The notes: generated by a model not told the origin, from the letters alone. DNA of 64,000 bases from Antedon mediterranea (GCF_964355755.1 NC_092674.1:12400001-12464000); one strand, 5' to 3'; numbered from the stretch's first letter, positions 15,501 through 54,100 are shown. Program-made: numbers and translations.

Positions 15501-15595
15501 AGTCTTCCAGGAAACTCTCAAGATGAGTAAAATATATCGCAGGTGAGTTTGGGGGTCTGTAGACAACTGATGCCCGTATTACGACTGAAGCCACA

Positions 15596-18655: not shown

Positions 18656-18793
18656 TTCTTCTTCTTTCTGATCAACTTTCCATTCCTGTTTTGATACTGT
18701 TACAGAAATTGTCATGTCCTTATACATAGATAGTATACCTACAGGTGCTATTAAAGGCTTCTCACCGATTTCTCTGTGGTCTTCTTTTACCTT
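18656..18793 (-). CDS. Exon of ANK-ZU5-UPA gene: UPA-like segment (KVKEDHREIGEKPLIAPVGILSMYKDMTISVTVSKQEWKVDQKEEE)
   Basis: TTTCAG acceptor, GTAAG donor, 138 nt open, phase 0-0, in frame with the ZU5 exon. It resembles the segment that follows ZU5 in UNC5-like proteins. Confidence 0.75.
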
Positions 18794-19249
18794 CTGAAAT
18801 AGGAATATGTACTGTTATTTGTGACTGTGTACATATTTGTTTTTTAACTACAGTATCTGAGGGAAGAGTACAGTGCATTCATCATGTTCACTTCTAAAAT
18901 AATTTTAACTGTAAATAGTTTAGGGAAATTTTGAATTTTCTGCCATAAATGTTAATTAATGTGTTATTATACGTTAGCTCAAATCTAGTGAGTGTCAATC
19001 CACAGGTATGAAGTAAGATGCATTTTTTCATACTGTACAAAAAGAGAATAAATATTATGCCAAGTTAACAAATTTAAAATAATATTATTATTGACCAAAT
19101 AAGATAAGAAGTAATAGTAACTTATTCAATCTTTCTAGAAACTGTGGCAGAGCAACTTTATATTATATCTATATTCTGAACAGTTAATTGATTGTAAGTA
19201 AAATAAGAACTACATTATTCAAATACAGTTTAAAAATTATAGTAATTAC

Positions 19250-19782
19250 CTTTACATCTGACGGCTTAAAAAGTCTTGTTTGAAGTTGATATTCATCATT
19301 TGCAAGCATCTTTCCAAAAACTCCTAACAACATTCTTTTCCTACCACGAAAGAAATTTCTTAGATGACCCATTAGTGCATACCAACAGAAATGATTTAAA
19401 GTTACATAACAATGACTGTTGTTTACAGTAAACTGTACATCCTTTTCATCACTTTTCAATGTTATTTGTTTCCATTCATCTTCAATGCGATCTTTAACAA
19501 GTAGAGTGAATTCCCAAAACTCTACATTTACAGCATCGTGTTGAAATGACAATGAAATGGGCTTGTTAAAGCTGGTGCCCTCTGGTCCACATTTAACAAT
19601 AGGTGATATAATGGTTTCACGAGGATGAGATACAGGCATGTCTGTTTCCTCAAAACAATTTTCTAGCGATATTTTAACTTTCTTCCCTTCAATTGCTTCA
19701 GAATGTATCTCCAACTTTATGTCTTCATCCTTAAGATGAAGCACTCCACCAGAAGATCCCACAACTATCTCCATAACTTGAT
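19250..19782 (-). CDS. Exon: ZU5 domain and start of UPA
   Basis: CTGCAG acceptor, AAG|GTAATT donor, 533 nt, phase 1-0. Motifs: GSSGGVL, LEIHSEAI, IISPIVKCGPEGTSFNKPISLSFQH, LNHFCWYALMG. Confidence 0.9.
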
Positions 19783-20427
19783 CTGCAGAACAGAAATACT
19801 CAATTCTATTGTAGATATTTACACAGTGTTTTAAAATTATGTTTATACTTTTTACTTTCTAGATTAACGTTAATGATTAACGTTAAATATATATTTAATA
19901 AGATTAATAAATTGATTAAATAGAACTTATGACTCTCCACATTCCAAATTAATTAGTGTTCCATGACCTTCTCATCAAAATTAACGTCACTCATTGTTGT
20001 GCTATGTCAACATAATGTCAATGACGGCGAAATGTCCCCAATAATGGGATAGCTATGCAAACAAGTAACAAGTAACATGATTGAACTACTTTTCATTGTA
20101 TTTATATGCAATTATATTTATTAAAAAACTGGTTTTATGTTTTTTATGAGACTTCTCCAATGGTGCCCACATTGAACAACATGATCTTATTGTAAATGGT
20201 TCCATAACATTCTCCAGCTGTCTAAGGTCTGTCTGATGGAACTCTAAGCAGTATAGTATCATCTGATGATCAAAGTGAGCAAGCTGGTTGATACAATATA
20301 AGATTTGACTCAAATAATAATTTTGAGCAATATTTTGTCATGATTTGAATGTGGTTAGGAGTAATTCATATTGAATCTAGAAGAGATCTATGAATTGAAA
20401 GTTCGTTTTAATCATTGGTGGTTCGTC

Positions 20428-20450
20428 CAGGGAAGAGTTAATCTTCCCTG
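20428..20450. repeat. 23-bp palindrome with 7-bp TSD (P-element-like footprint or micro-MITE)
   Basis: GTTCGTC-CAGGGAAGA-GTTAA-TCTTCCCTG-GTTCGTC. Confidence 0.6.
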
Positions 20451-20791: not shown

Positions 20792-20894
20792 CTTTCAATA
20801 TTTCAATTATCTCGGCTTTTTGACCTGCCCTTAATTCGTCGTCATATTTCTCACACGCATTTTCATTGTACAAATCTATTACAGATTTGCCATA
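20792..20894 (-). CDS. Exon: ankyrin C-cap/linker (YGKSVIDLYNENACEKYDDELRAGQKAEIIEILK)
   Basis: ATACAG acceptor, G|GTAAGT donor, 103 nt, phase 0-1. Its terminal G plus AT from the ZU5 exon makes an in-frame Asp codon. Confidence 0.85.
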
Positions 20895-21282: not shown

Positions 21283-21405
21283 CTTATCTTCTTTTGAAAC
21301 GTAAGATTTACCAGAACATTCCTTCATTAGATACACAATGATGGCTATGTGTTCGCTGTACGTGAGATCTTGTGTGACACATACATGCAGAAGTGTGCGT
21401 TTGTT
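21283..21405 (-). CDS. Exon: divergent ankyrin repeat (NKRTLLHVCVTQDLTYSEHIAIIVYLMKECSGKSYVSKEDK)
   Basis: TACTAG acceptor, AAG|GTTGGT donor, 123 nt open, phase 0-0, with a TLLH...IIVYL...DK ankyrin pattern. Confidence 0.8.
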
Positions 21406-23058: not shown

Positions 23059-23157
23059 GTGGTTTAAATGATTTACGTCTGCTCCAACTTTGATGAGATA
23101 CGTACATGTACGCACGTGACCCATATCTGCAGCACACAAAAGAGGTGTATTCCCGTC
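23059..23157 (-). CDS. Ankyrin-repeat exon (DGNTPLLCAADMGHVRTCTYLIKVGADVNHLNH)
   Basis: 99 nt, TTTCAG acceptor, GTAAGT donor, phase 0-0, ankyrin consensus. Confidence 0.92.
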
Positions 23158-33170: not shown

Positions 33171-33269
33171 ATTGTCTGGAAGATCCAATTTAGCACCTGC
33201 CTTGAGCAAAATAGTGCAAACATATGTGTGGCCGTGATATGCAGCCAAAAGTAAAGGTGTCGATCCATC
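33171..33269 (-). CDS. Ankyrin-repeat exon (DGSTPLLLAAYHGHTYVCTILLKAGAKLDLPDN)
   Basis: 99 nt, TTTCAG acceptor, GTAAGT donor, phase 0-0. Confidence 0.92.
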
Positions 33270-35770: not shown

Positions 35771-36578
35771 GGTTAATATTATATTGTATTCCGTTTAATC
35801 AGCAAGGCCTACATTTCATTTTCCATGTGTTAATTTTCACTATGATCACACGATTACGAAATCAGCAACAGTTGACCACATACGAATGACAATCGGTTCT
35901 TTTTAGTGGGCTGAATTATTAACATTAATTGACTTAAACGGCCACCAACTGTTATTATTCAGTTTAATAAAACCAAGTCTCACTTGTACAGAGAATATGT
36001 CTTGAAAACTTTTACAGATACAATATCATTTCACTATAAATCTTTGATATCATGTGTATATAAACAACACTTGATGTGTTTACAATTGCCATGTCACGGG
36101 AATACGGTTGAGTTTCATAGGAAACAAAGTTGTAGAGATTATAAGTTTCTGAAATATACTGTAGTGCTGCTGTGTTATCGGAGAAAGTATTTTATAATCT
36201 AATCACAGTATGTATTCAATTATCTCAACACAAATACCAATTGAAATGCCATAGTTTCTGTGATTAGTTCTTTAGTTCTTTTAAATATGTCTACTATAAT
36301 CTTTCCATCTCTTCTGAAACTTGTTTTCAATACAATCAATTGCCTGTTGTAGATACAAACAAGGAAAACGTTTATTCATCATTACTAACAAGTAAGTTAT
36401 CAGGGATAGTTATTTTTTCAGGTTGATGTACTTACATTTCCATCACATAACCCTTACCTTTTATCACGTAACGTATTAAGAGTACACGCCTGTTCATGTG
36501 CGCCATATTATTGCTCATATATTCTTTACCAAAATAATTGTGCAAGCACTGTTAACGTAGTTTACCTAGTTTACCAAT

Positions 36579-37424
36579 AGAGAGAAATGGCGAACCGCGA
36601 TGACGTCACTCAAATTTCACCGAGTGGGTATATATTGTAAACAAACCATTTCGCCACATGTTTTTGTATGGGAAATTCCGATGGGTTGAGTTAAAAAGGA
36701 AGGTAGAAAAGAACGTTTAAAACACACATAATAGCAGTATCTTTTTTTTTTGCAACACCCTTAACAATTTTAATGTTATATGGGCAAATCTTAACATATT
36801 TTATTTTAATTTGGATTGAATTAAGATGCGTTTTTGTTATATACTGTACCCAGCTCTAGGCCCTAGATAGTTGGCCTGTATGCTGTAGTACCTCGGATTA
36901 TCGGTTATTATAATAATAATAATATTGGAAATTCGTTATTGCATACTGTACTACTACTACTACTACTACTACTTTAGCTAGGGTGCTGCTGGCCTCTCCT
37001 AGCTAGGTAGTAAGACTAAATAGAGCATCTCTAGTAGATGTAGGCCTAGCATTAGTTTCAGCTTGACAACTGCCATTTTGTTATGTGGCTAGTGATGCTT
37101 CATGCAGGGAGGGGGGGGGGGGGGCTACCGCCAGTAGATAACACCATTCTATATAATACTATATAGGCATAGTCTAATGTAGACCTACAGATATGAGATA
37201 TTTTTAGGAATATGATTGTGAATGATGGATGACTTTTATACATATTTCATTGTTTTATTGTGTAAGTACACAAATACAACAAGAATTATGAGCGTTACAG
37301 CAACAACATTGGTTAGACGAAACCATGATTCACGTGTATAAACATAGGAAATGTGTCGCCCTCAACGGTTTGTTATGATTTTATACCCACTCGGATTTTA
37401 GACGTCGGTTCGCCATTTCTCTCT
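36579..37424. mobile_element. ISL2EU/PHIS-like MITE (second copy at 42295-43131)
   Basis: AT|AGAGAGAAATGGCGAACCG ... CGGTTCGCCATTTCTCTCT|AT. It is absent from the paralogous site at about 47973. Confidence 0.7.
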
Positions 37425-40400
37425 ATTGGGATTGTATATTTATGTAAAGTAATACTATTAAAACAAGGTCAATACTCGGGAAAATGGATTAGATACTGCA
37501 TGACATTTTTTTCTGTTATTAACCATATTAGGAAGTAAAAATAAAATTTCAATTATTGCTTTATTTTGGGGTTAAAGGTCACCAAATACAGGCCAAAAAT
37601 ACCCTAAAATCTTATTTTAAAAATAAAACTATTAAAATAGTTTAGATTCACTGTGATTCTAGAAAAAATTGAACAGCGAATTTATCAAAACTGTTGTTGT
37701 TGCTCTTTTAAAGGGAAATTTCATGGTTTCTCCCAGTTTACATGTTTACAAGACACTATTAAAATTTACCAAATATAACATTATTAGTGGATTTATATAA
37801 TTTAAGATGTCTTCTTTCTAAACAATATTAAAAAGTTTCGATTGTCACATTTACCATTTTTGGACTTTTGCCACACTTTGAATTGGTTCTGGTCCACTGT
37901 GCCACGGGCCAAGAGCTATTCTTTTATTATTCTAATTTTTTTTAATCGGCAATCATGACCCTTTATAACTTGTTGTTGTATATGATGTGCCAGCGTGTGC
38001 GATATTGGTACATGTTACGTTCTAGGCGTTGTAGTAGTAAACAACCTGATGAAAGTGACATTGGGTAGACTTGTGAATGGTAGTTGTGAATGAATTGCCG
38101 TTTCTTACACAGGGAGCATACCGCCTCTCGTAACTACGGATTTTGGTCCCTGGATGTGTATCGCATGGCCCCCGGATGTTGACGCGTGAGCTTGGCCAAC
38201 TTAACTTCTAAATATAGTTACTGTATAAATGTTTCTTACAAAGACAAGTGCGTCCTATCACTAGTACAGTTAGTAACTTGATTCATATTTTGGTTCCTCT
38301 AACTTTGATACAGCACAGATATCGACGCGTGAACAGCAATGAAAATGAGTTCGTTAATTAGTCGTTTTACTGTAATAATATATATATATATATTTGTTAT
38401 ACTAGAAAATTAGTTTGATGAAATGTATTCTACAAAATTAGAAGGCCTAATAATTGTTTTCCCTCAGAAATGAAGTGGGGGGAGGTCACGTGTCTGTTTA
38501 TGAGTGATAATCAATAAGGCATTTAATTAAAATGCAGAGTGTCTTAAAATTAGGCCTACTTGACTGAATCAGAGTAGACCTACTACACAGTTGCATTTAA
38601 ATGAGTCAATAATTAGCATGATAATTTATGTAATTAATACACAGTGAAAGAGCTTATTTTAGTATCCTATAGTAATACATTTTTCTATATAATTTAAAGA
38701 GAAGATGGAATTTAAAATCAGTTACAAAAGCCGACGATAAGAGAGAATTACATGTTTCAAAAAACACCCACTTGTTATTAAAAAAAAAACATTGCACATC
38801 GGCGAGGCTCGATGTCATGCGTGACTGACGAAAACTTGCATGTTTTGTTGTACTGTAGGCCTATCAGTTAATCAGCATACAATGAAACGTGTATCTTGTA
38901 CCCCATCATGGTACAAAGTGTCATACAAATCGTACATTTAATAATTCGAACAGCCTAGAACGTGAACATAATTCGTAGCGTACGTATACACAGTACACGA
39001 CTACGCGTCGGTAAACTTCGCCAGGGAAGTAAGCCTAACTATAATATACGCATTTTGATTCCTGGATGGAACATGATGTATATATTACGCGTAAACCGTG
39101 TATTTCACGATGCCACTAGATCGGTCACTTAATAATAATAATTACTTTAATTTTCCAATTCATCATGCGTTTGTCGTTACTATGAACTTTAATTGTACTG
39201 ATTGGAATAATTAATCAGTAAAATAATGCTTGCCTTCTGATCAATGTTAGTTACATTGAAAACCTCATCCCAAGGATGCGATGTAAATCAACAGTTGAAT
39301 AGCAAGAGAAGACATGGGTTGGCTAATTCACTTGCAATTGTTTGTCTTTTTTTTAACAATATTTTGATGACGAAGTAACAGTTACTGTATAGTCAGAGTG
39401 GCAATAGTTATACGAATTATTGTTTCAGATTTGTAATAATTACGTCAAGTATAGCCTCTTCTCTAGTAGCCATGTCAGCCTCTTGACTTAGCTATTGGGC
39501 ATGGAAAAGTGCACTGATATTTGCACGTTAAAATCGCCTATGACACCAACGCAAGCATAAAACAACTATATTCTACAAATAAACATGATCAGAAATAGAC
39601 AATGTAGTCGCTTAGTATACCAATTTCATCATGTAACTGCTGTGTTCAGTCTTCTGTTATTTACGTATATTATGCAGCAACACCTTCCCCGTGATGATGT
39701 TTAACGATGACTATGTAAAATTAATGTTAAACATCAGAGATGTTATCTCTAGGGTTGCTAGTTATAATGTAGTAAAAACAAATAATACTAGAATATAAAA
39801 AGTACATAATGAAAAAAGAAAACCTGGATAACCCAATTTCGTTAACTATACTAACTTTAGATAAATTGGTGGTCACATATTGAAGTAATTTCGGATTTGA
39901 CAAAAGTATGAGTATGTATGAGGTTAATTAGGCCTATTTCAGAAAACAGTTTAGGGGATTTTTTTTTCTCAGCCCCACTCTGCAGTCACGATCTCTTTTC
40001 GCGAATTCTAATTTCACATAAACGGGCAATGAAATCATTATTAAAAACATGTAAGCTTATACGGTAGGTATATATTTATATTATTTATTTATTTATTTTT
40101 GTTTATCCTTTTCGTGGATACTATTTAAAAATACAAACAGAAGGTTTGTATTTTTTCCGATTGTTTCGCTGTATACAGTAAATAAGTTGCTGATGAATTT
40201 TATGATGATTTTGAAGAATAAAATGAATAATTAAAAATATGAGGCGTATAAAAATCATTTTGCATGATTGATTTCTGTAATATAAATTCTGTAAAAGCGT
40301 TGTTTCCAGTTTTAATTGTTTAGGCCGACAGATCGAGTATGTTGTTACACAGGCCATGATTGTTATTATAAAAATCTGATATGAAAATAACTATTGTTCT

Positions 40401-40606
40401 TATGTTGTACCATGTGGAGTTGAAGTTTAACAGAACAATATAAATAGTTCTAATGGTTCTGCTAATTTAGTATTATTTATATAATGTAGTGACAGTACTT
40501 TAGGTATGTTATTACCGGTTCGCCCTTAAATTTGAAAATTAAACCATTTATTTTAATCACACTGAACTATATAGCACCCTTATTAATAATGTTATGTAAA
40601 ACTTAC

Positions 40607-40705
40607 ATTTGTTGTAAGATCCAAATTAGCACCTGCCTTGAGCAAAATAGTGCAAATATCTGTTTGGCCATTACTTGCAGCATAATGCAAAGGTGTCCAT
40701 CCGTC
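40607..40705 (-). CDS. Ankyrin-repeat exon (DGWTPLHYAASNGQTDICTILLKAGANLDLTTN)
   Basis: 99 nt, TTTCAG acceptor, GTAAGT donor, phase 0-0. Confidence 0.92.
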
Positions 40706-40951
40706 CTGAAATATTACAAACATTATGTTATAGTATTTTTCACTTCACATCAAACTATCTAATATTGTACTAAAATCAATTAGATGTGATCATGTGTATA
40801 TACAAATTCAATTAAATAATTAAATTTATATAATAATTTAAAGTATGTGTAATCAGTGCTACTAAGCGCCTTTGATGATTACATTGTTTACTTAATTATG
40901 GCAACACAAACACAATATAAGTATATGAAAGTTACTTGTTGAAACTTAAAA

Positions 40952-41260
40952 TTCAGCACCCGTCTATTTACAGGAACTAATTCAGAAGTATAACCCTGGT
41001 CGCCAGGGACTCGGATCTACACAAGATATTACTCGTCTTGTTGTTCCTAAAACTAATAGACTATTTAGTGATAAATCATTTTCTGTCATTGGACCTAAGT
41101 TATGGAACAATTTACCTATTAATGAGCGTATTGCTCCAAGTGTACAGTGTTTTAAAAAATTGTTAAAGAGTTTTCTTTTCCCTAAGGAATAATTTAGATA
41201 TGTACTGCTCTAATTAATATACAACTTTTGGGAAAAGCGCTTTATAAATCTCTATAGTAT
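40952..41260 (+). mobile_element. L2 LINE 3' fragment (duplicated at about 46621-46929)
   Basis: Encodes APVYLQELI..LVVPKT..DKSFSVIGPKLWNNLP..FKKLLKSFLF and ends in AAAGCGCTTTATAAAT. Empty paralogous sites lie at about 52095 and 55005. Confidence 0.8.
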
Positions 41261-41534
41261 AAAATAAATTGCCATAAATAGATTGTTAAATGATACTGGT
41301 ATGTACTTCTTGTATCTAATTTATAAACAAAAAATATTATTTTAATTATAAATTTGTAATATTAAACCATTGGACAGTGTGTGTGTGAAATATGTAATGT
41401 ACTTCCTCTATCTAATTTATAAAAAAAAAATAAAATATTTTAATTAGATTTGTCTTTATTCATTAGGCATAATGTGTATGTACCAGTTCCAGAAACGAAT
41501 GAATCACGATTATTAATAAAAAGTATGAAAGCAC

Positions 41535-41919
41535 ACATAAAACGAACAATTCGTCGCTGCAGAACTGAATCTTCTTTTCAATCATATATCCCACGTGTTA
41601 CCAGAATTTGGAATAACTTATCCAGTGAAATCAGCAACTTAAATATTTATGTTAGGTGTTTTAAAACCAAATTACTTAATTATCTCAATATTTATTTTTT
41701 AAATAATTTTGATATTGAAAAAGTGTGTAGTTGGTCGCTTTCTTGTAGATGCTTTAATATTGTAGAACGTAATTTATTTATTTTTCTTATATGTTTCTGT
41801 TCTGGTTTGACCAACTAGCATAGTTGTAGCACCTGTTTGGTCTTTCCATGCCTCCTTTTATAATTGTTTTGTCTTCTTTGTTATGTATATGGCAGAAATT
41901 GAATAAATAAATAAATAAA
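41535..41919 (+). mobile_element. CR1-type LINE 3' fragment (duplicated at about 47204-47588)
   Basis: Encodes RCRTESSFQSYIPRVTRIWNNL..FKTKL..CSWSLSCRC and ends in a (TAAA)n tail. Confidence 0.75.
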
Positions 41920-44900
41920 CACAGTATGTATTCAATTATCTCAACACAAATACCAATTGAAATGCCATGGTTTCTGTGATTAGTTCTTTAGTTCTTTTAA
42001 ATATGTCTACTATAATCTTTCCATCTCTTCTGAAAACTGTTTTCAATACAATCAATTGCCTGTTGTAGATACAAACAAGGAAAACGTTTATTCATCATTA
42101 CTAACAATTAAGTTATCAGGGATAGTTATTTTTTCAGGTTGATGTACTTACATTTCCATCACATAACCCTTACCTTTTATCACGTAACGTATTAAGAGTA
42201 CACGCCTGTTCATGTGCGCCATATTATTGCTCATATATTCTTTACCAAAATAATTGTGCAAGCACTGTTAACGTAGTTTACCTAGTTTACCAATAGAGAG
42301 AAATGGCGAACCGCGATGACGTCACTCAAATTTCACCGAGTGGGTATATATTGTAAACAAACCATTTCGCCACATGTTTTTGTATGGGAAATTCCGATGG
42401 GTTGAGTTAAAAAGGAAGGTAGAAAAGAACGTTTAAAACACACATAATAGCAGTATCTTTTTTTTTTTGCAACACCCTTAACAATTTTAATGTTATATGG
42501 GCAAATCTTAACATATTTTATTTTAATTTGGATTGAATTAAGATGCGTTTTTGTTATATACTGTACCCAGCTCTAGGCCCTAGATAGTTGGCCTGTATGC
42601 TGTAGTACCTCGGATTATCGGTTATTATAATAATAATAATATTGGAAATTCGTTATTGCATACTGTACTACTACTACTACTACTTTAGCTAGGGTGCTGC
42701 TGGCCTCTCCTAGCTAGGTAGTAAGACTAAATAGAGCACCTCTAGTAGATGTAGGCCTAGCATTAGTTTCAGCTTGACAACTGCCATTTTGTTATGTGGC
42801 TAGTGATGCTTCATGCAGGGGGGGGGGGGGGCTACCGCCAGTAGATAACACCATTCTATATAATACTATATAGGCATAGTCTAATGTAGACCTACAGATA
42901 TGAGATATTTTTAGGAATATGATTGTGAATGATGGATGACTTTTATACATATTTCATTGTTTTATTGTGTAAGTACACAAATACAACAAGAATTATGAGC
43001 GTTACAGCAACAACATTGGTTAGACGAAACCATGATTCACGTGTATAAACATAGGAAATGTGTCGCCCTCAACGGTTTGTTATGATTTTATACCCACTCG
43101 GATTTTAGACGTCGGTTCGCCATTTCTCTCTATTGGGATTGTATATTTATGTAAAGTAATACTATTAAAACAAGGTCAATACTCGGGAAAATGGATTAGA
43201 TACTGCATGACATTTTTTTCTATTATTAACCATATTAGGAAGTAAAAATAAAATTTCAATTATTGCTTTATTTTGGGGTTAAAGGGCACCAAATACAGGC
43301 CAAAAATACCCTAAAATCTTATTTTAAAAATAAAACTATTAAAATAGTTTAGATTCACTGTGATTCTAGAAAAAATTGAACAGCGAATTTATCAAAACTG
43401 TTGTTGTTGCTCTTTTAAAGGGAAATTTCATGGTTTCTCCCAGTTTACATGTTTACAAGACACTATTAAAATTTACCAAATATAACATTATTAGTGGATT
43501 TATATAATTTAAGATGTCTTCTTTCTAAACAATATTAAAAAGTTTCGATTGTCACATTTACCATTTTTGGACTTTTGGCACACTTTGAATTGGTTCTGGT
43601 CCACTGTGCCACGGGCCAAGAGCTATTCTTTTATTATTCTAATTTTTTTTAATCGGCAATCATGACCCTTTATAACTTGTTGTTGTATATGATGTGCCAG
43701 CGTGTGCGATATTGGTACATGTTACGTTCTAGGCGTTGTAGTAGTAAACAACCTGATGAAAGTGACATTGGGTAGACTTGTGAATGGTAGTTGTGAATGA
43801 ATTGCCGTTTCTTACACAGGGAGCATACCGCCTCTCGTAACTACGGATTTTGGTCCCTGGATGTGTATCGCATGGCCCCCGGATGTTGACGCGTGAGCTT
43901 GGCCAACTTAACTTCTAAATATAGTTACTGTATAAATGTTTCTTACAAAGACAAGTGCGTCCTATCACTAGTACAGTTAGTAACTTGATTCATATTTTGG
44001 TTCCTCTAACTTTGATACAGCACAGATATCGACGCGTGAACAGCAATGAAAATGAGTTCGTTAATTAGTCGTTTTACTGTAATAATATATATATATATAT
44101 ATTTGTTATACTAGAAAATTAGTTTGATGAAATGTATTCTACAAAATTAGAAGGCCTAATAATTGTTTTCCCTCAGAAATGAAGTGGGGGGAGGTCACGT
44201 GTCTGTTTATGAGTGATAATCAATAAGGCATTTAATTAAAATGCAGAGTGTCTTAAAATTAGGCCTACTTGACTGAATCAGAGTAGACCTACTACACAGT
44301 TGCATTTAAATGAGTCAATAATTAGCATGATAATTTATGTAATTAATACACAGTGAAAGAGCTTATTTTAGTATCCTATAGTAATACATTTTTCTATATA
44401 ATTTAAAGAGAAGATGGAATTTAAAATCAGTTACAAAAGCCGACGATAAGAGAGAATTACATGTTTCAAAAAACACCCACTTGTTATTAAAAAAAAAAAC
44501 ATTGCACATCGGCGAGGCTCGATGTCATGTGTGACTGACGAAAACTTGCATGTTTTGTTGTACTGTAGGCCTATCAGTTAGGCATACAATGAAACGTGTA
44601 TCTTGTACCCCATCATGGTACAAAGTGTCATACAAATCGTACATTTAATAATTCGAACAGCCTAGAACGTGAACATAATTCGTAGCGTACGTATACACAG
44701 TACACGACTACGCGTCGGTTTGATTCCTGGATGGAACATGATGTATATATTACGCGTAAACCGTGTATTTCACGATGCCACTAGATCGGTCACTTAATAA
44801 TAATAATTACTTTAATTTTCCAATTCATCATGCGTTTGTCGTTACTATGAACTTTAATTGTACTGATTGGAATATTTATTCAGTAAAATAATGCTTGCCT

Positions 44901-47588
44901 TCTGATCAATGTTAGTTACATTGAAAACCTCATCCCAAGGATGCGATGTAAATCAACAGTTGAATAGCAAGAGGAGACATGGGTTGGCTAATTCACTTGC
45001 AATTGTTTGTCTTTTTTTTAACAATATTTTGATGACGAAGTAACAGTTACTGTATAGTCAGAGTGGCAATAGTTATACGAATTATTGTTTCAGATTTGTA
45101 ATAATTACGTCAAGTATAGCCTCTTCTCTAGTAGCCATGTCAACCTCTTGACTTAGCTATTGGGCATGGAAAAGTGCACTGATATTTGCACGTTAAAATC
45201 GCCTATGACACCAACGCAAGCATAAAACAACTATATTCTACAAATAAACATGATCAGAAATAGACAATGTAGTCGCTTAGTATATATACCAATTTCATCA
45301 TGTAACTGCTGTGTTCAGTCTTCTGTTATTTACGTACATTATGCAGCAACACCTTCCCCGTGATGATGTTTAACGATGACTATGTAAAATTAATGTTAAA
45401 CATCAGAGATGTTATCTCTAGGGTTGCTAGTTATAATGTAGTAAAAACAAATAATACTAGAATATAAAAAGTACATAATGAAAAAAGAAAACCTGGATAA
45501 CCCAATTTCGTTAACTATACTAACTGTAGATAAATTGGTGGTCACATATTGAAGTAATTTCGGATTTGACAAAAGTATGAGTATGTATGAGGTTAATTAG
45601 GCCTATTTCAGAAAACAGTTTAGGGGATTTTTTTTTCTCAGCCCCACTCTGCAGTCACGATCTCTTTTCGCGAATTCTAATTTCACATAAACGGGCAATG
45701 AAATCATTATTAAAAACATGTAAGCTTATACGGTAGGTATATATTTATATTATTTATTTATTTATTTTTGTTTATCCTTTTCGTGGATACTATTTAAAAA
45801 TACAAACAGAAGGTTTGTATTTTTTCCGATTGTTTCGCTGTATACAGTAAATAAGTTGCTGATGAATTTTATGATGATTTTGAAGAATAAAATGAATAAT
45901 TAAAAATATGAGGCGTATAAAAATCATTTTGCAGGATTGATTTCTGTAATATAAATTCTGTAAAAGCGTTGTTTCCAGTTTTAATTGTTTAGGCCGACAG
46001 ATCGAGTATGTTGTTACACAGGCCATGATTGTTATTATAAAAATCTGATATGAAAATAACTATTGTTCTTATGTTGTACCATGTGGAGTTGAAGTTTAAC
46101 AGAACAATATAAATAGTTCTAATGGTTCTGCTAATTTAGTATTATTTATATAATGTAGTGACAGTACTTTAGGTATGTTATTACCGGTTCGCCCTTAAAT
46201 TTGAAAATTAAACCATTTATTTTAATCACACTGAACTATATAGCACCCTTATTAATAATGTTATGTAAAACTTACATTTGTTGTAAGATCCAAATTAGCA
46301 CCTGCCTTGAGCAAAATAGTGCAAATATCTGTTTGGCCATTACTTGCAGCATAATGCAAAGGTGTCCATCCGTCCTGAAATATTACAAACATTATGTTAT
46401 AGTATTTTTCACTTCACATCAAACTATCTAATATTGTACTAAAATCAATTAGATGTGATCATGTGTATATACAAATTCAATTAAATAATTAAATTTATAT
46501 AATAATTTAAAGTATGTGTAATCAGTGCTACTAAGCGCCTTTGATGATTACATTGTTTACTTAATTATGGCAACACAAACACAATATAAGTATATGAAAG
46601 TTACTTGTTGAAACTTAAAATTCAGCACCCGTCTATTTACAGGAACTAATTCAGAAGTATAACCCTGGTCGCCAGGGACTCGGATCTACACAAGATATTA
46701 CTCGTCTTGTTGTTCCTAAAACTAATAGACTATTTAGTGATAAATCATTTTCTGTCATTGGACCTAAGTTATGGAACAATTTACCTATTAATGAGCGTAT
46801 TGCTCCAAGTGTACAGTGTTTTAAAAAATTGTTAAAGAGTTTTCTTTTCCCTAAGGAATAATTTAGATATGTACTGCTCTAATTAATATACAACTTTTGG
46901 GAAAAGCGCTTTATAAATCTCTATAGTATAAAATAAATTGCCATAAATAGATTGTTAAATGATACTGGTATGTACTTCTTGTATCTAATTTATAAACAAA
47001 AAATATTATTTTAATTATAAATTTGTAATATTAAACCATTGGACAGTGTGTGTGTGAAATATGTAATGTACTTCCTCTATCTAATTTATAAAAAAAAAAT
47101 AAAATATTTTAATTAGATTTGTCTTTATTCATTAGGCATAATGTGTATGTACCAGTTCCAGAAACGAATGAATCACGATTATTAATAAAAAGTATGAAAG
47201 CACACATAAAACGAACAATTCGTCGCTGCAGAACTGAATCTTCTTTTCAATCATATATCCCACGTGTTACCAGAATTTGGAATAACTTATCCAGTGAAAT
47301 CAGCAACTTAAATATTTATGTTAGGTGTTTTAAAACCAAATTACTTAATTATCTCAATATTTATTTTTTAAATAATTTTGATATTGAAAAAGTGTGTAGT
47401 TGGTCGCTTTCTTGTAGATGCTTTAATATTGTAGAACGTAATTCATTTATTTTTCTTATATGTTTCTGTTCTGGTTTGACCAACTAGCATAGTTGTAGCA
47501 CCTGTTTGGTCTTTCCATGCCTCCTTTTATAATTGTTTTGTCTTCTTTGTTATGTATATGGCAGAAATTGAATAAATAAATAAATAAA
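41920..47588. repeat. Tandem duplication unit 2 (5669 bp, contains one ankyrin exon)
   Basis: Begins CACAGTATGTATTCAATTATC, as do 36204 and 47589. It differs from unit 1 by scattered SNPs, microsatellite lengths and an indel of about 40 bp. Confidence 0.95.
46276..46374 (-). CDS. Ankyrin-repeat exon identical to 40607-40705
   Basis: 99 nt with the same sequence and splice sites. Confidence 0.9.
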
Positions 47589-50500
47589 CACAGTATGTAT
47601 TCAATTATCTCAACACAAATACCAATTGAAATGCCATGGTTTCTGTGATTAGTTCTTTAGTTCTTTTAAATATGTCTACTATAATCTTTCCATCTCTTCT
47701 GAAAACTGTTTTCAATACAATCAATTGTTTGTAGATACAAACAAGGAGAACGCTTATTCATCATTACTAACACGTAAGTTATCAATGATAGTTATTTCTT
47801 CAGGTTGATGTACTTACATTTCCATCACATAACCCTTACCTTCTATCACGTAAAGTATTAAGAGTACACACCTGTTCATGTGCGCCATATTATTGCTCAT
47901 ATATTCTTTACTAAAAATAATTTTGCAAGCACGTTAAATGTATTGATTCAAGATCAACATTACTTTGTTTATCAATATTGGGGTTGTATATTCATATGAA
48001 GTAATAATATTAACAAGGTCAACACTCGGTAAACCAAATTTTTTGGAAAAAAGCAATGGATTTGATACTGCATGACATTGTTTTTCTGTTATTAACCATA
48101 ATAGAAAGTAAAAATAAATGTCAACTATTGCTATATTTTGGGGTTAAAGATCAACAAATACAGGTCAAAATACCAAAAATCATATTTTTAAAATAAAACC
48201 ATTATAATGGTTTAGATTCACGGTGATTCTAGAAACAGCAGAGAATTTATCAAAACTGTTGTTTTTGCTCTTTTAAATTGAAATTTCATGGTTTCTCCCA
48301 GTTTCCATGGTTACAAGACACTATTAAAATTTACCAAACATAACATTATTAGTGGACAAACAATATTAAAAAATTTGGATTGACAAATTTACCATTTTTG
48401 GACTTTTGGCACACTTTGAATTGATTCTGTCCCACTGTGCCATGGGCCAAGAGCTATTCCTTTATTATTCTATTTTTTTAAATCGGTAATCGTGACCCTT
48501 TATAAGTAATGTTGTATATGATGTGCCAGCGTGCTACGTTCTAGACATTGGAATAGTAAACAACTAATAGTAAAAAAAAGTTGAAACGAATTGTAAACGT
48601 CTGTCCAGCATTAGAGATAATCTTAAAAATGTCTCTTCTGGAAAGAGGTAATAGATGCATGGAGTAATTTTATTTCTATTCATTATCCAAAGTTTGTTGA
48701 CGAGCTATTACGAATGCAAATTTGGAATAATGAAGTAATAAGAATAGGCAACGAATGTATAAGATATGGAAATTGGGGAAAAGCAGGTATTCTGTTTGTT
48801 AATGATTTGTTTAACAGCAATGGGCAATTTATGAATAAAAAAGAAGTCGAAGATACCTATGGAATTAAGATAAATTATAAAAAATTAATAGGAGTAAGAA
48901 GGCTTCTTATGGAAAAATTTAACAATTTAATTATATGTGAAATTTTAAAAAACAGTTTTGCCAGATATTCCATTTCATATAAAAAGTACTCTTTCAACAA
49001 AGAAAGGGATGTCGTATTTTTTATGATGTTTTAAATAACTCAATGTTTACATCATGGAAAGCACAAAAGAAATGGGCAGAGAATACATTTGTATTCAATA
49101 ACGAACAATTGAAAACAATCTACCTAGATCCACATACGTGTACAATGAATATTGTTTTAATATATTTTCAATATAAAATTGTAAACAGAATAATTGCAAC
49201 AAATGAACAATTATTTAAAATGAATATAAAAGAAACTTCAATGTGCTCATTTAGAGATGGTAAAATCGAAACCATTTAGCATTTGTTCTGTAATTGTCCA
49301 ATAGTAAAAAGGATATGGAACCTTTTCCAGGAAAAAATTTCAGAAAAAAACTGGAGTGCAATTTATTTTTAGTAAAGAGAGCATAATTTTCGGATACCAA
49401 GATGCGCATCAGTTTTTTAATTTAAAAGCCATTAATGCAATTATTCTAATTGTAAAATCATTTATTTATAAATGTAAACTAGTTAAATGTAAGTCAAATA
49501 TCAAAATGGTTATGAACGAGTTAAAAAGGTTTTATGAAACGGAAAAAAGTATTTATCATCAGAATTTTCAGGACAGTATTTTAAATAGAAAATGGATAAA
49601 ATTAGAAGCATTTATAAATCAAATATGAAATTGTTAGAGATTAGAATAATTTTTATGAACCTTTATTTAATTTGTTTGTTGTTTTTGTTTGATTTTTATT
49701 TTTTATTTGATTATGTTTTTCCTTTGTAATGTATTATTATGATGAAAAAAATAAATAAATAAAAAAATAAAAAAATAGTAAACAACCAAATAAAAGTGAC
49801 ATTGGGTAGACTTGTAAATGGTAGTTTCTTACAAAGGGAGCATACCGCCTCTCGAAGCTACGTATTTTGGTACCTGTATGTGTATAGCATGGCCCCCGGT
49901 TATCGACGCGTGAGCTGGGCCAACTTCTAAATATATTCACTCTATAAATATTTCTTACAGAGGGACACCTCCAGATTAAGTGCGTCCTATCACTAGTAAG
50001 TAACTTGATTCAGATTTCTAACTACATGACAGATATTGACGCGTAAACCACAAAGAAAATGAGTTTGTCAATTAGTAGACGTTTTACTGTAATATTAAAT
50101 ATATTTGTTACTAGAAATTAGTTTGATAAAATATATTCTACAAAATCAGTAGGCCTAATCGTTTTCCCCTAATAAATTAAGGGGGTGGGGGGAGGGACAC
50201 GTGTTTGTTTATGAGTGAGAATCAAAAAGGCATTTAGTTAAAATGCAGACCGTCTTAAATTACTTGACATGTTCCGATAAATATATTCGCATCATCAGAA
50301 TTGTAATCAAAGCATAGGATACTTGTATACGTACAAAGTTGCGTTTAAATGAGTCAATCATAGCATGAGAATAGATTTATCGAAACATGTCACCTAATTT
50401 TAAGACGGCCCACATTTTCATTAAATGCCTTATGATATTATTGATTATCAATCGTAATTAGGTGGTATTATACATGATGTGCCTGTTTATGTACAATGAA

Positions 50501-50900
50501 AGAGCTTATTTTAGTATCCTATATTAATATATTTTCTATATAAGAGAATATGTTATTTCAAATCAGGTACAAAAGCCGACGATCCAAGCGAATTACATGT
50601 TTAAAAAAAATCGGAAAACACTCATTTGTTATTTTCAAAACACATTGAAAATCGGCGCGGTCCGATGGCATTCGTGACTGGCGGAAAAACGCAACAAAAA
50701 TGAAAAACGAAAATGGCATGTTGTGTTTTCTGTAGGGCTACAGTAATTAGTGTTTCAGATACCACCATTGACAGTAGCAGAATTGGGTGTTTATTTCAAG
50801 CTCACATAAACGGGCAAAGAAATCCTCGTGAAACATTATTTAAGCTTATTCTCTATAGTATATTTAAGTTATCTACTTATTCATTTATTTATATATTGTT
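47589..50900. repeat. Older, diverged third paralog of the duplicated intronic unit
   Basis: Colinear with about 36204-38870 but has many substitutions. It lacks the MITE and carries an L1/Tx1 insertion. Confidence 0.85.
48565..49773 (+). mobile_element. 5'-truncated L1/Tx1-clade LINE
   Basis: Encodes IWNNEVIRIG..W..AGILFVNDL, FQYKIVNRIIATN and CSF....ETI.HLFC.C. It has a poly(A)-rich tail and a 13-bp TSD AATAGTAAACAAC (48552-48564, 49774-49786). Confidence 0.85.
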
Positions 50901-51119
50901 TTCTCTTTTTACTTGGTTAGATGAAACATGTTACCGAGAAACAACAAACATTCTAGTTGAAATTGTTTATGTATACCCACAGATTGCACTATTTTCTGTA
51001 TACTTAATTAGGTACTCTTTTCGTACATGTGTTGCTGTTGGAAATAGATAAATATTTCACTTCAATTATTTTCCAAAAATAGTGGTACACAACAATGAAA
51101 GAAAATGTGAAAACTATTA

Positions 51120-54100
51120 TTACTATTGGTTTCATTTTACCGTTACTTAGAGGGGATATGTTTTTTTTTAATGTTTTATAAAATCAAATGAAAATCTTGA
51201 TTCATATCAATTTATTGTATCATTTTGCATAAAATACAATCTTGCTCTACAGCACAACACAATGCAAAAACAGAAAACTGAAAAAACCACGACATATCAT
51301 TCTCTAACATTCAGTGCCCTAAAGACATATGGAAACAATGATTACGGAATCTATTACGAGAGGTGATGGACCTTTTTTTTAACGTCAAATGAGTGCATTG
51401 GATAGGTTAGGTCTTGCAAAATTGAATGTGTTTCCTCAGTAAAGTATCTTATAAAAAGAATCGAAATGAGATTTGCTTAATTATAACTACTAAAGTCCTA
51501 TACGTGAAGCATAACTAATAATACGTTGCAGCTAATTCTTACATGTGGTACAGGTAAACTATAAAATAAAGAATAATGAGAATACTTTCAATGACAGATT
51601 TATAAAAAAAAGACGTAGGCCTATGTCTAATGGGAGGGTTAACTCGAAAGATGTGAGTCTATGTAACAGTAAAGCCTATTTGATACTCTCAGAGCCATAG
51701 TAATTATTTCATTGACATGCATACTTGTCTTGGACAAAATCTGAAAAGAGGCATAGAAATCAGATAGGGGAAGTGGAATGTTACAAGTAGTCAATATAGT
51801 CATTATATCCTAATAATTCCTTCTGATCACTCTTAAGCGTGGTTGACACTGAATTGTTTGCATAGACTATACCCCACTTCAAGTATTATTAAATTATAAT
51901 AATTATGACCTACAGTATCCACGTTATATCACCATATTAAATAATTTGTCATTGTTTAAAGAAAACATTAATCATGATGTTTTGAAAGTGTAATAAGTGC
52001 TACTAAGCGCCTTTGATGTTTACATTGGTAGTTAATTACTGTAATACAAACTTATCAATATAAGTATATGCAAGTTACTTTTGGGTAACTTAAAATTAAT
52101 TGTCATAAACATTTTTTTTAATGATACTGGTATGTACTTTTGTATCTAATTTATCCAAAACAATATTATTTTAATTATAAAATTTTAACATTCAATCATT
52201 GGAGATTTTGTGTGATGTACTTCCTAAATAAAAAAAAATAAGTATGAAAGCAAACATAACAACAGACAATGATTACTAGTTTCCCGAATAATTGTTGAAT
52301 TAAACTAACATTTTGAACTCAACCATCACCGTGATGATATCGGGATATCCGTGTTAACGCACACAGTGTAACAAACATCTTGAAATACACTCATACTCTA
52401 TAAACTGAAAAAAATATATAGTGCTGAATTATGTCTATTATGTGTCATACAGTACTAAATGCGAATAACCAATAAAGTAGTGATTTTTTTCCCTTGGGGA
52501 AAAAACAATGCATTTAATTTGATATTTTTCTTGATAGTATAATATTCAATTGTTTGGTGTATGTCACTGTTATGAGTCCAGGTAAGCACAACTGTGGCAT
52601 CTATTGTCTATAAACGTCTATAAATTTCAAAACCTTTATTGTCTGAATTCGTTTTGAATGAAGTTGTAGGCCTTCAAATTCAAATGTCAAATGAATACTA
52701 ATATTGGTGTCCTTTCTACATGATCTCAAGCTCTTCCGCTAGTCACCTAATCGACCAAAAATATTGGTATGCATACAGAGAGTCATGTCAGGAATAAACA
52801 ATGTAAGTCGCTTATTACGAAGATGGACCTATTTCATTATGTAACTGCTGTTGTCACTATGATGTTATTTACGTACATAATTTGTATAATTAAAGTTTAT
52901 CTATTGCGTAATCAGTTATGTTTTCTGATTGAACTTAACTGATTTTAAATCAATGGGAGCTCATCAGTTATATACATTATAATCATTTCAGATTTGACAA
53001 AATAATTAAAACTGATTACTTTCCGATTATCAGAAAGCTTAAATATGTTAATATTTACATAAACAATGGTACGAAGACGTAAACTTACTGTGAGCTTCTG
53101 CATGTAAATTAAGAGGCTAATTATGCATTTTCAAATAACAGTTCGGAATAGTTGGATTTTGTTGCTTATGTTCGCGAAATTGTCTTTTATTTCAAACTCA
53201 CAAAAACGGGAAATGAAAATTTCGTTATTAAAAACATTATTTAAAGCTTATTCAGTATAGTTAAATTATTCAATTTATTCATTTATTTATATGTGTTGTT
53301 CCTTTTTTTTCTTTTTACTTGGTTAGATAAAACATGTTAGTGATAAAATGCCAATATTCTAGTTAACATTCTTCATTTAATGATAATCCCACAAATTGCA
53401 CTATTTGTGTATACTTAAATAGGTAGCTCTTTTCGTATATTTGTTGCTGTTAGGAAAATAAATATTTCACTTCAAAAACTTTCCAAAAATAGTGGTACAC
53501 AACAATGACAACAAAAAAGAGGGGAAAAAACTCTATTTTACGTTCTTGTTATATAAATATTATGAACGACTGAATTATATAGCACATAATATTTATGTGG
53601 GTAACACTTACTTTTGCCTGAAGATCCAATTTAGCACCTTCCTTGAGCAAAATAGTGCAAACATCTGTGTGGCCGTTTTGTGCAGCCACATGTAAAGGTG
53701 ACGCTCCATCCTGAAATATTACAAACATTATGTTATAGTATTTTCTATCTCTAAACAAAGTAGTAAAATATTGTCCTGAAATCAAAACGATGTGATCAAT
53801 TAAAAATGACGGTATAGTTTTAAATAATGCTACATAGTTAAATTAAATAAAGAGTATTAGGCCTAACCCTTTTTTTAAAGATAATGTATTGTATACATAT
53901 ACATTTGTATTTCTTGTAGACCTATAACATTTGTTTATAGTGCTTTATAAATTTATAAAACAAATAAGTGGTTTTTTTTTGGCCTGAAAAGTAAAACTTC
54001 ATCCGGTAGTGCTAACTAGTCTGAGTGTAAACTGGCAGTTACAGCTAAAATATATCTAGCCTCCAAATTCTGTTCAGGTAACACATTTTGACTGCTAAAT

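What the first reader, a model, noticed from the sequence alone, without database searches (positions are those of the whole stretch)
18656..53710. Candidate variable sensor gene: one-repeat-per-exon ankyrin array fused to a ZU5-UPA (FIIND/PIDD-like) module
Seen: nine minus-strand exons with canonical splice sites join in frame as ANK(53.6k)-ANK(46.3k)-ANK(40.6k)-ANK(33.2k)-ANK(23.1k)-divergent ANK-cap-ZU5-UPA. Only one ZU5 follows the repeats, unlike canonical ankyrins, which have two. Known: ZU5-UPA is the module of UNC5, PIDD1 and the NLRP1/CARD8 FIIND, and is usually followed by a death-fold domain. Inference: this is a lineage-specific intracellular sensor or adaptor whose recognition surface is an expandable ankyrin array, analogous to the LRRs of PIDD or NLRs. 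The gene start and any death domain were not found in this window.
Basis: partly seen in the sequence, partly recalled or inferred. Interest (0 to 1): 0.9.

Follow-up and report, generated by a model that had tools for sequence, protein, structure and literature searches.

The report
Feather-star ankyrin-cassette self-cleaving sensor gene
Nine in-frame exons, likely from a feather star, would join a recently expanded array of one-repeat ankyrin exons, of a type that leads into a GTPase in a related species, to a module predicted to cut itself; the gene is likely a fast-changing intracellular sensor, but its two ends lie outside the window and no transcript was seen.

Summary
In detail: nine minus-strand AG/GT exons join into a 464-codon open frame. 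Five are 99-nt ankyrin exons, two are a divergent repeat and a cap, and two give one ZU5 plus two-thirds of UPA.

The closest proteins are from the crinoid Antedon mediterranea. There the same ankyrin and cap exons (cap 89% identical) lead into a Roc-type GTPase, with or without a death domain. The ZU5-UPA module sits in other genes, often before tandem DEDs. So this looks like an exon-shuffled chimera joined at a phase-1 intron.

The array grew by unequal crossover: exons 2 and 3 are identical and lie in a 5.7-kb tandem duplication whose middle repeat is a clean chimera. Differences between repeats cluster on the binding face. The ZU5 has His-Phe-Cys at the CARD8/PIDD self-cleavage position, and 15 of 16 crinoid modules keep Ser, Thr or Cys there.

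Not shown: splicing, gene start, last UPA exon, any effector, ligand or immune role. The 18 kb downstream is largely transposon DNA, so a truncated copy is a real possibility. Verdict: a new variant of known kinds (brown-algal ROCO cassettes, PIDD/FIIND), not a new class.

The parts
53612..53710 (-). Exon E1: one ankyrin repeat, 99 nt, phase 0-0; not the gene start
   Evidence: Pfam Ank E 2.4e-9; splice sites; N-terminal part of homologues P0215/P0224 not found in the window
46276..46374 (-). Exon E2: one ankyrin repeat, 99 nt, phase 0-0
   Evidence: Pfam Ank E 9.7e-12
40607..40705 (-). Exon E3: identical copy of E2
   Evidence: 0 nt differences from E2
33171..33269 (-). Exon E4: one ankyrin repeat, 99 nt, phase 0-0
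   Evidence: Pfam Ank E 7.6e-8
23059..23157 (-). Exon E5: older, distinct ankyrin repeat next to the cap
   Evidence: Pfam Ank E 9.2e-9; 28 of 33 residues match the fourth repeat of P0181 (alignment)
21283..21405 (-). Exon E6: divergent ankyrin-like repeat, phase 0-0, weak donor; optional for the frame
   Evidence: 31% over 35 aa to P0217 105-139; helix pair at pLDDT above 90 in the P0217 model; absent from the P0181 model
20792..20894 (-). Exon E7: C-terminal ankyrin cap, phase 0-1; in A. mediterranea it is followed by a linker and (death domain-)Roc
   Evidence: 88.6% to P0181 139-173 and 61.8% to P0217 145-174
19250..19782 (-). Exon E8: complete ZU5 domain and first strands of UPA, phase 1-0
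   Evidence: Pfam ZU5 E 4.7e-18; UNC5B 3g5b E 2.3e-8; 61-75% to seven A. mediterranea proteins
19385..19393 (-). His-Phe-Cys codons at the ZU5 autoproteolysis position (predicted cut F|C)
   Evidence: Phe aligns to UNC5B Leu-677, the equivalent of CARD8 Phe-296 in PMC3210808; family motif counts
18656..18793 (-). Exon E9: middle third of UPA, phase 0-0; the next exon is not in the window
   Evidence: tblastn to 8 of 8 homologues; last-exon profile has no hit better than E 0.19
36200..47937 (.). 5.7-kb tandem duplication (36200-41915 and 41916-47584, 98.4%) carrying E3 and E2, bounded by three copies of a ~355-bp repeat
   Evidence: self-BLAST; difference list
41916..42276 (.). Chimeric middle repeat: the first 4 diagnostic sites match the right-hand copy and the following ones the left-hand copy; crossover at about 42037-42059
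   Evidence: three-way alignment; the repeat has only these three copies in the window
12880..18472 (.). Block of LINE-type retroelement remains starting 184 bp past the E9 donor
   Evidence: Pfam RVT_1 and Exo_endo_phos_2 hits; a DNA contig joins 12880 to 18472 with only 23 letters on the short side

Best explanation
The window holds the middle of a likely crinoid gene in which an array of one-repeat ankyrin exons and its cap would be spliced, across a 1-kb phase-1 intron, to a single ZU5-UPA module predicted to cleave itself, likely making a fast-evolving intracellular sensor that signals through tandem death effector domains encoded beyond the window. SHOWN in DNA: the exon chain and frame; array growth by unequal crossover between intronic repeats; repeat differences concentrated at binding-face positions; His-Phe-Cys at the FIIND cleavage position. 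SHOWN in a relative's gene models: these ankyrin and cap exons precede a Roc-type GTPase, while the ZU5-UPA module occurs in other genes with DED pairs, Roc-COR or membrane helices. INFERRED: the gene arose by exon shuffling at the phase-1 intron; the protein cuts itself at F|C by an N-to-S acyl shift and the halves stay associated; binding of a ligand to the ankyrin face, or destruction of the N-terminal half, frees a UPA-DED-DED fragment that oligomerises and recruits a caspase-8-like or FADD-like partner, as the UPA-CARD of NLRP1/CARD8 and PIDD-CC do.
For: Open 464-codon chain with canonical sites; E7 is the only phase 0-to-1 link and lies 1009 bp from E8. P0181 is ANK x4-cap-Roc and P0217 is ANK x3-E6-like-cap-Death-Roc. 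No Roc, COR, death-domain or post-cap linker exon was found in the window. Chimeric middle repeat. Binding-face codons differ at 11/18, 7/18 and 7/18 nt in the three exon pairs, against 23/129, 22/130 and 27/126 in flanking intron (p 0.0002, 0.036, 0.09). The same positions vary among 10 distinct A. mediterranea repeats (1.47 vs 0.54 bits, p 0.0012). Ser, Thr or Cys follows the Phe in 15 of 16 crinoid modules, this one included (C 6, S 5, T 4); PMC3210808 and PMC9162469 (passages read) name these three as the autoproteolysis nucleophiles. The P0006 model matches UNC5B (Z 25.3, rmsd 2.4, 274 aligned), CARD8 (Z 16.5, rmsd 3.7, 244) and NLRP1 (Z 16.1, rmsd 3.9, 245); its tail matches caspase-10 and caspase-8 tandem DEDs (TM 0.76, 0.72). 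5 of 10 close homologues have that tail after UPA and 0 of 10 have Roc after UPA.
Against: No annotated protein with this ankyrin array joined to ZU5 was found: 0 of 154 ZU5 hits match the local ankyrin profile, and only 1 of the 120 listed ankyrin hits has ZU5, a canonical flatworm ankyrin. The last UPA exon and any DED are missing from the 18.6 kb downstream, although the neighbouring introns are only 0.4-1.7 kb. pN/pS at face codons is above 1 in only 1 of 3 pairs, with 3-4 synonymous sites each. The three pairs are not independent, the face positions were recalled from DARPin design, and any ankyrin set varies most there. The Roc hits in P0181 and P0217 are partial and below Pfam's cut-off (25.4 and 16.9 bits against 27), and no COR is in those two models. 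The DED hits are below cut-off too. A Ser/Thr/Cys at this site is common in other ZU5 hits (90 of 110 ungapped rows), so it is not special to this family, and cleavage at Cys is untested. Nothing here bears on ligand or immune function.
Confidence: 0.45

Rival explanations
1. Truncated or dead copy: a real ANK-to-ZU5 junction whose 3' end was cut off or inactivated by nested retroelement insertions, as is common in birth-and-death families.
For: LINE remains begin 184 bp past the E9 donor, and RT or endonuclease fragments occur at about 1, 11, 14, 15 and 17 kb. No last UPA or DED exon in 18.6 kb. Reading through the E9 donor stops after 7 codons. Several A. mediterranea models are fragments.
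Against: All nine exons keep frame and splice sites. Introns 1-4 are 5.6-10 kb and carry repeat-derived DNA, so a long intron 9 is possible. Framework codons diverge less than flanking intron in E1-E4 (7/81 vs 27/126, p 0.011), though not significantly in the other two pairs.
Confidence: 0.25
2. The ZU5-UPA module was inserted into an otherwise complete ankyrin-Roco gene, so the protein is ANK-ZU5-UPA-Roc-COR and self-cleavage would separate the sensor from the GTPase.
For: In P0217 a death domain sits in exactly this slot, between cap and Roc. The module starts in phase 1 here, and homologue sequences suggest it also ends in phase 1 (tandem copies in P0002 and P0003; inferred from protein only). 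P0005 shows that Roc-COR and this ZU5 clade share genes.
Against: In 0 of 10 close homologues does Roc follow UPA; in P0005 the module is downstream of Roc-COR. No post-cap linker or Roc exon is in the window.
Confidence: 0.17
3. The exons are real but are not one transcript, or the protein is a non-immune scaffold like ankyrin or UNC5; part of the array (E2/E3) could also be an assembly duplication of two haplotypes.
For: The junctions are predicted from DNA only. No listed contig bridges E7-E8 or the chimeric repeat. The two 5.7-kb units differ at an allele-like level. UNC5B is the best structural match.
Against: E8 has no start of its own and needs a phase-1 upstream exon, and E7 is 1 kb away. 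The middle repeat switches parent once, as a crossover product would. Contigs of one sample show a third variant of the unit that neither window copy has. UNC5B has Gln-Leu-Gly at the site where this family has His-Phe-Ser/Thr/Cys.
Confidence: 0.13

Closest known systems
Brown-algal LRR-ROCO and NB-ARC-TPR candidate receptors (Zambounis 2012, PMC3341825: abstract and section 15 read; Teng 2024, PMC11378527: passages read)
   Same: One repeat per symmetric exon in front of a Roc GTPase family; repeat number changed by recombination; variation on the binding face; no ligand known.
   Different: Ankyrin (99 nt, phase 0) instead of LRR (72 nt, phase 2); an animal; here the array is joined to ZU5-UPA with no Roc-COR in the window; no inverted or orphan repeat exons were found in the introns.
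PIDD1 (LRR-ZU5-ZU5-UPA-DD; PMC9162469, section 6 read)
   Same: Repeat domain, then ZU5-UPA with a His-Phe-nucleophile motif, then probably a death fold.
   Different: Ankyrin instead of LRR; one ZU5; Cys instead of Ser; probable tandem DED instead of DD; a multigene family with variable repeat number.
NLRP1 / CARD8 FIIND (PMC3210808, passages read; PDB 7crw, 7jn7)
   Same: Single ZU5 plus UPA with the cleavage-position Phe conserved; a homologue's model matches at Z about 16.
   Different: Sequence is closer to UNC5-type ZU5 (6-8% identity to the FIINDs against 24% to UNC5B); no NACHT, LRR or CARD seen.
UNC5B cytoplasmic ZU5-UPA-DD (3g5b) and UNC5CL
   Same: Best sequence and structure match. 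UNC5CL is reported to self-cleave (passage in PMC7883297).
   Different: No Ig, TSP or membrane segment in the modelled part; N-terminal ankyrin array; UNC5B lacks the nucleophile.
Antedon mediterranea uncharacterised RefSeq models XP_071950050.1 (P0181), XP_071950764.1 (P0217), XP_071965522.1 (P0005), XP_071947633.1 (P0275)
   Same: Source families of both halves: 54-91% identity for repeats, 61-75% for ZU5.
   Different: None joins ankyrin to ZU5. The ankyrin models lie on a 31.9-Mb contig and the ZU5 models on 36.2-, 28.6- and 22.3-Mb contigs.
Canonical ankyrins (ANK1-3)
   Same: Ankyrin repeats N-terminal to ZU5/UPA.
   Different: Canonical ankyrins have two ZU5 domains and a fixed 24-repeat array (count recalled); here there is one ZU5 and a young, near-identical, variable array.

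Membership tests
Canonical ankyrin | Tandem ZU5-ZU5 before UPA | tested here: not met
   One ZU5 runs directly into UPA within E8; no second ZU5 exon between E7 and E9
Canonical ankyrin | Conserved array of 24 distinct repeats (recalled) | tested here: inconclusive
   5 repeats plus a divergent repeat and cap in the window, two of them identical; the 5' end is outside the window
Roco (Roc-COR) proteins | Roc GTPase followed by COR | tested here: inconclusive
   None in the window by tblastn and phmmer with P0005, P0181, P0217; could lie beyond the left end
Roco (Roc-COR) proteins | N-terminal repeat array homologous to that of Roc-bearing proteins | tested here: met
   E1-E7 match P0181 and P0217, whose Roc hits are partial and below Pfam's cut-off
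PIDD1 orthologues | LRRs plus two ZU5 domains | tested here: not met
   Ankyrin repeats and one ZU5
Self-cleaving ZU5-UPA (FIIND/PIDD/UNC5CL type) | ZU5-UPA fold | tested here: met
   Pfam ZU5 on E8; homologue P0006 model against 3g5b Z 25.3, 7jn7 Z 16.5; the window's UPA lacks its last exon
Self-cleaving ZU5-UPA (FIIND/PIDD/UNC5CL type) | (H/S)-F-(S/T/C) motif before the last ZU5 strand | tested here: met
   HFC at 19393-19385; Phe aligns to UNC5B Leu-677 = CARD8 Phe-296
Self-cleaving ZU5-UPA (FIIND/PIDD/UNC5CL type) | Actual autoproteolysis | not testable with these tools
   Needs expression and a Cys-to-Ala control
Self-cleaving ZU5-UPA (FIIND/PIDD/UNC5CL type) | C-terminal death-fold domain | tested here: inconclusive
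   Not in the window; a DED pair follows UPA in 5 of 10 close homologues
NLRP1/CARD8 | Pfam FIIND with CARD (and NACHT-LRR for NLRP1) | tested here: inconclusive
   E8 hits ZU5, not FIIND, at E up to 1; the C-terminus is outside the window
UNC5 netrin receptors | Ig-Ig-TSP-TSP-TM before ZU5 | tested here: not met
   The exons upstream of ZU5 are ankyrin repeats and a cap
Exon-cassette variable receptors (Ectocarpus ROCO type) | One repeat per symmetric exon | tested here: met
   Five 99-nt phase 0-0 exons
Exon-cassette variable receptors (Ectocarpus ROCO type) | Recombination changing repeat number | tested here: met
   5.7-kb duplication with a chimeric junction repeat; not confirmed by spanning reads
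Exon-cassette variable receptors (Ectocarpus ROCO type) | Diversifying selection on exposed residues | tested here: inconclusive
   Face codons exceed the intron rate in 2 of 3 pairs at p<0.05; pN/pS above 1 in 1 of 3
Exon-cassette variable receptors (Ectocarpus ROCO type) | Alternative splicing of repeat exons | not testable with these tools
   Needs raw or long RNA reads

The most novel reading that the evidence does not exclude
Crinoids run a mix-and-match intracellular receptor kit. Ankyrin cassette arrays that expand by unequal crossover and diversify on their binding face are swapped, through a shared phase-1 intron, between Roc GTPase, death-domain and self-cleaving ZU5-UPA-tandem-DED outputs. 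This gene is a working ankyrin-sensor 'DED inflammasome' that cuts itself with a cysteine and activates a caspase-8-like protease without any NLR ATPase.
Probability: 0.25. Interest if true: 0.85.

Novelty: new variant of a known kind. Interest (0 to 1): 0.55.

Why it matters
Crinoid immunity is little described: I found no paper on these families in ten searches (open-access library only). If expressed, the gene would carry the brown-algal 'one repeat, one exon, shuffled' receptor design into a deuterostome and tie it to PIDD/NLRP1-type self-cleavage with a DED output. It would also offer a natural test of Cys and Thr nucleophiles in ZU5 autoproteolysis. The duplication gives a base-resolved crossover that can be genotyped in populations, so repeat-number variation is directly testable.

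Tried and rejected
No whole genome is held for this window, so paralogue counts and contig extension could not be done.

Sequencing runs: no RNA holder listed. Run X1 was only guessed to be RNA and showed no exon-exon joints among the rows displayed. This is not used for or against expression. Contig depths were higher in the duplicated block than in the ZU5-region contigs, but depth is no copy number and is not used as one. No listed contig bridged E7-E8 or the chimeric repeat, and the tables were cut.

A homologue search with E6 alone found nothing (1 candidate). A profile of the four ankyrin exons did not detect E6 or E7, so their ankyrin nature rests on homologues. Searches for further ankyrin exons, the gene start, the last UPA exon, DED, death, Roc or COR exons in the window were negative. 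The DED profiles were built from the same homologues they were scored on, so those hits only map the domain.

The ZU5-UPA tree (15 rows; P0009 and the N-terminal fragment of P0003 dropped as under 150 aligned residues, P0004 replaced by its longer cluster-mate P0275) puts the window with P0275, P0003 and P0005 (98/96). It does not decide between deletion of a Roc-COR-DED block and recombination between two genes.

Pfam scans of the 145 further ZU5 representatives listed no Ank family: complete for 71, cut at 25 of 54 families for 74. The Atlas gave ZU5 and FIIND clusters but none with ankyrin among the families shown. Our-findings look-ups by sequence and place were empty.

Rejected: canonical ankyrin, PIDD orthologue, UNC5 receptor, chance ORF chain. 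The spliced protein itself was not folded or searched; homologues P0006 and P0217 stood in. No complex prediction was run. No supplements were read; those of PMC8195603 (domain-architecture tables) might list similar echinoderm proteins.


Full report
OBSERVATION. The window is AT-rich eukaryotic DNA (33% GC). Five ankyrin exons lie on the minus strand at 53710-53612, 46374-46276, 40705-40607, 33269-33171 and 23157-23059. Each is 99 nt, flanked by TTTCAG and GTAAGT, phase 0-0. Four distinct ones were scanned and all pass the Pfam Ank cut-off; nhmmer finds no sixth. Four more exons follow: 21405-21283, 20894-20792, 19782-19250 and 18793-18656. The chain is open for 464 codons, and introns are 7237, 5570, 7337, 10013, 1653, 388, 1009 and 456 bp. 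E8 is ZU5 (Pfam E 4.7e-18; UNC5B E 2.3e-8). E8's tail and E9 are the first two-thirds of UPA by homology.

ORGANISM AND FAMILY. All 8 hits of a search with E8 among longer proteins are Antedon mediterranea models, seven of them at 61-75% identity. In the exhaustive search of 50%-cluster representatives, the nine hits at E up to 1e-30 are all Antedon or Anneissia. I infer a crinoid close to Antedon. These ZU5-UPA proteins have mixed layouts: ZU5-UPA twice plus a DED pair (P0002), Roc-COR-DED pair-ZU5-UPA-DED pair (P0005), ZU5-UPA-DED pair with or without a membrane helix (P0006, P0008), DED pair-ZU5-UPA (P0275), and others. A model of P0006 (mean pLDDT 80.9) matches UNC5B (Z 25.3), ankyrin-B (Z 20.1), CARD8 (Z 16.5) and NLRP1 (Z 16.1) over ZU5-UPA. 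Its helical tail matches caspase-10 and caspase-8 tandem DEDs (TM 0.76 and 0.72 on the Atlas's own model; Z 7.7 to the FADD/caspase-8/cFLIP assembly). Pfam DED hits are below cut-off. Of 10 close A. mediterranea clusters, 5 carry the DED pair after UPA and none carries Roc there.

WHERE THE ANKYRIN HALF COMES FROM. A profile of E1, E2 and E4 returned 312 hits among 463 candidates, 120 listed. Five short A. mediterranea models on one 31.9-Mb contig stand out, up to 91% identical. P0181 has four repeats, the cap (88.6% identical to E7 over 35 aa) and then a linker and the start of a Roc domain. P0217 has three repeats, an E6-like repeat, the cap, a death domain (E 1e-10) and the start of Roc. 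The Roc hits are partial and below cut-off, and COR is not in these two models. P0215, P0224 and P0234 show the array's N-terminal start, which is not in the window. A model of P0217 shows its first 170 residues, including the E6-like and E7-like parts, as a five-unit ankyrin stack (pLDDT mostly above 88; about 164 columns at rmsd 1.6-2.1 A to DARPins). No Roc, COR, death or post-cap linker exon is in the window. I found no annotated protein that joins this array to ZU5 (0 of 154 ZU5 hits; 1 of 120 listed ankyrin hits has ZU5 and it is a canonical flatworm ankyrin). The cap exon ends in phase 1 and the ZU5 exon starts in phase 1. In six of the seven homologue proteins with sequence there, a ZU5 copy is preceded by Asp-Gln or Asp-Arg, and in P0003 by Tyr-Gln, as a phase-1 junction onto 'AT' would give (inference). 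The simplest reading is exon shuffling at this intron, by recombination between an ankyrin-Roc gene and a ZU5-UPA-DED gene or by loss of a Roc-COR-DED block. The tree does not separate these.

HOW THE ARRAY GROWS. E2 and E3 are identical and sit in a tandem duplication, 36200-41915 and 41916-47584, 98.4% alike. Three copies of a ~355-bp repeat bound the units. The middle copy matches the right-hand copy at its first 4 diagnostic sites and the left-hand copy at the following ones, apart from one private base and the ragged end, which puts a crossover at about 42037-42059. That is the expected product of unequal crossing-over. DNA contigs of one sample carry unit-specific stretches and a third variant that neither window copy has. 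This argues against a mere two-haplotype artefact, although no listed contig spans the junction. Older duplications are visible too: E1, E2 and E4 share flanking intron at about 80%.

WHAT VARIES. Among E1, E2 and E4, helix 2 is nearly fixed, and three different residues occur at consensus positions 5, 10, 13, 33 and 1. At the six positions randomised in DARPins (2, 3, 5, 13, 14, 33; recalled), nucleotide differences are 11/18, 7/18 and 7/18 for E1-E2, E2-E4 and E1-E4. Flanking intron gives 23/129, 22/130 and 27/126 (p 0.0002, 0.036, 0.09). Adding position 10, chosen after seeing the data, strengthens this slightly. Ten distinct A. mediterranea repeats vary at the same places. Against: the pairs are not independent, pN/pS at face codons exceeds 1 in only one of three pairs with 3-4 synonymous sites, and ankyrin repeats in general vary most there. 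Diversifying selection is suggested, not shown.

SELF-CLEAVAGE SITE. E8 encodes His-Phe-Cys at 19393-19385. In the alignment to 3g5b the Phe pairs with the Leu that is residue 677 when the chain is numbered so that His-624 and Cys-663/670 agree with PMC3210808. That paper equates Leu-677 with CARD8 Phe-296, the residue before the cut (passages). PIDD1 uses His-Phe-Ser, and Ser, Cys or Thr serve as nucleophiles in such reactions (PMC9162469 section 6). In 16 crinoid rows, this one included, the residue is Cys 6, Ser 5, Thr 4 and Asn 1, the last from a fragmentary model start. In 147 other rows, 37 are gapped and 90 of the remaining 110 have Ser, Thr or Cys. So the motif is of the cleaving type and widely kept; cleavage itself is untested.

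THE MISSING 3' END. Profiles of the homologues' last UPA exon and DED pair find nothing in the window (best E 0.19 and 1.0). Retroelement remains start 184 bp after the E9 donor; RT or endonuclease hits occur in 5 of 12 frames tested between 0.3 and 18 kb. The next exon is therefore more than 18.6 kb away or gone. This is the main reason for caution.

MECHANISM, COMMITTED. An intracellular protein with a variable ankyrin face cuts itself at F|C, and the halves stay together. Ligand binding or loss of the N-terminal half frees UPA-DED-DED, which oligomerises and recruits a DED-caspase. UPA-assisted filament formation is described for NLRP1/CARD8, and tandem-DED filaments for caspase-8 (PMC11874512, passages). 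Everything after the exon structure is inference (0.45). Rivals: truncated copy (0.25); module inserted into a full Roco gene, in the slot where P0217 has a death domain (0.17); not one transcript, or a non-immune scaffold (0.13).

COMPARISON AND NOVELTY. The cassette design matches brown-algal ROCO-LRR genes (PMC3341825, abstract and section 15; PMC11378527, passages). The C-terminal logic matches PIDD1 and NLRP1/CARD8. Repeat instability in fungal HNWD receptors is a further parallel (PMC2873952, listing and start of abstract only). Lineage-specific shuffling of death folds, ankyrins, ZU5-UPA and GTPases in marine invertebrates is described in general terms (PMC8195603, passages). PMC4104024, PMC9573974 and PMC7883297 (passages) added only background. 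It is not a canonical ankyrin, PIDD orthologue or UNC5 receptor; Roco membership cannot be settled without the 3' end. Ten literature searches found no description of crinoid ankyrin-ZU5 or ankyrin-Roc families, in an open-access library only. Unchecked notes from this scan report similar layouts in sea urchins, a mussel and a choanoflagellate, so the theme is recurrent. What is particular here is the traceable swap of one ankyrin array between Roc and ZU5-UPA outputs, the resolved crossover, and the Cys motif. Verdict: real, a new variant of known kinds, interest 0.55.

Noticed in passing
window 51116-53512 and 54099-56359: Two 92%-identical intron blocks flank E1. The lower copy joins its neighbouring repeat (50790-51105) directly with no ankyrin exon, so an exon was lost or was never copied.
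   Followed up: partly
window 33825-35771 and 60314-63068: The intron upstream of E4 has a 77-81% copy at 60-63 kb, with no ankyrin exon at the matching place.
   Followed up: partly
window 38664-38714 and 44373-44423: DNA contigs show a third variant of the 5.7-kb unit, with 49 bases replaced by 7, absent from both window copies.
   Followed up: no
window 21347, 21356: Six to eight different DNA contigs carry other letters inside E6, suggesting several close paralogues or alleles of this exon.
   Followed up: no
window 7728-8688 and 9520-10491: 973-bp inverted repeat (97.8%) with 140-bp tandem units; contigs join 7706 to 10492, as for a non-autonomous DNA transposon insertion.
   Followed up: no
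window 3875-5039 and 11150-12075: A plus-strand LINE-like element appears split by a 6.1-kb insertion; a contig joins 5039 to 11150.
   Followed up: partly
window about 18060-18090, minus strand: A frame ending in GDIELNPGP precedes the LINE remains; it resembles the 2A-like motifs of some non-LTR elements (recalled).
   Followed up: no
window 63576-63839, minus strand: RT-associated RNase H fragment of an LTR retrotransposon (Pfam RT_RNaseH E 2.3e-22).
   Followed up: no
proteins P0002, P0005-P0009, P0275 (A. mediterranea): A crinoid-type tandem DED pair, below Pfam cut-off, occurs once or twice per protein on either side of ZU5-UPA, in some models with a membrane helix; it looks like a mobile module of its own.
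   Followed up: partly
ZU5 representatives P0014-P0154: His-Phe-Thr is the commonest motif at the cleavage position (51 of 110 ungapped rows), so self-cleaving-type ZU5 domains may be widespread and under-recognised.
   Followed up: no
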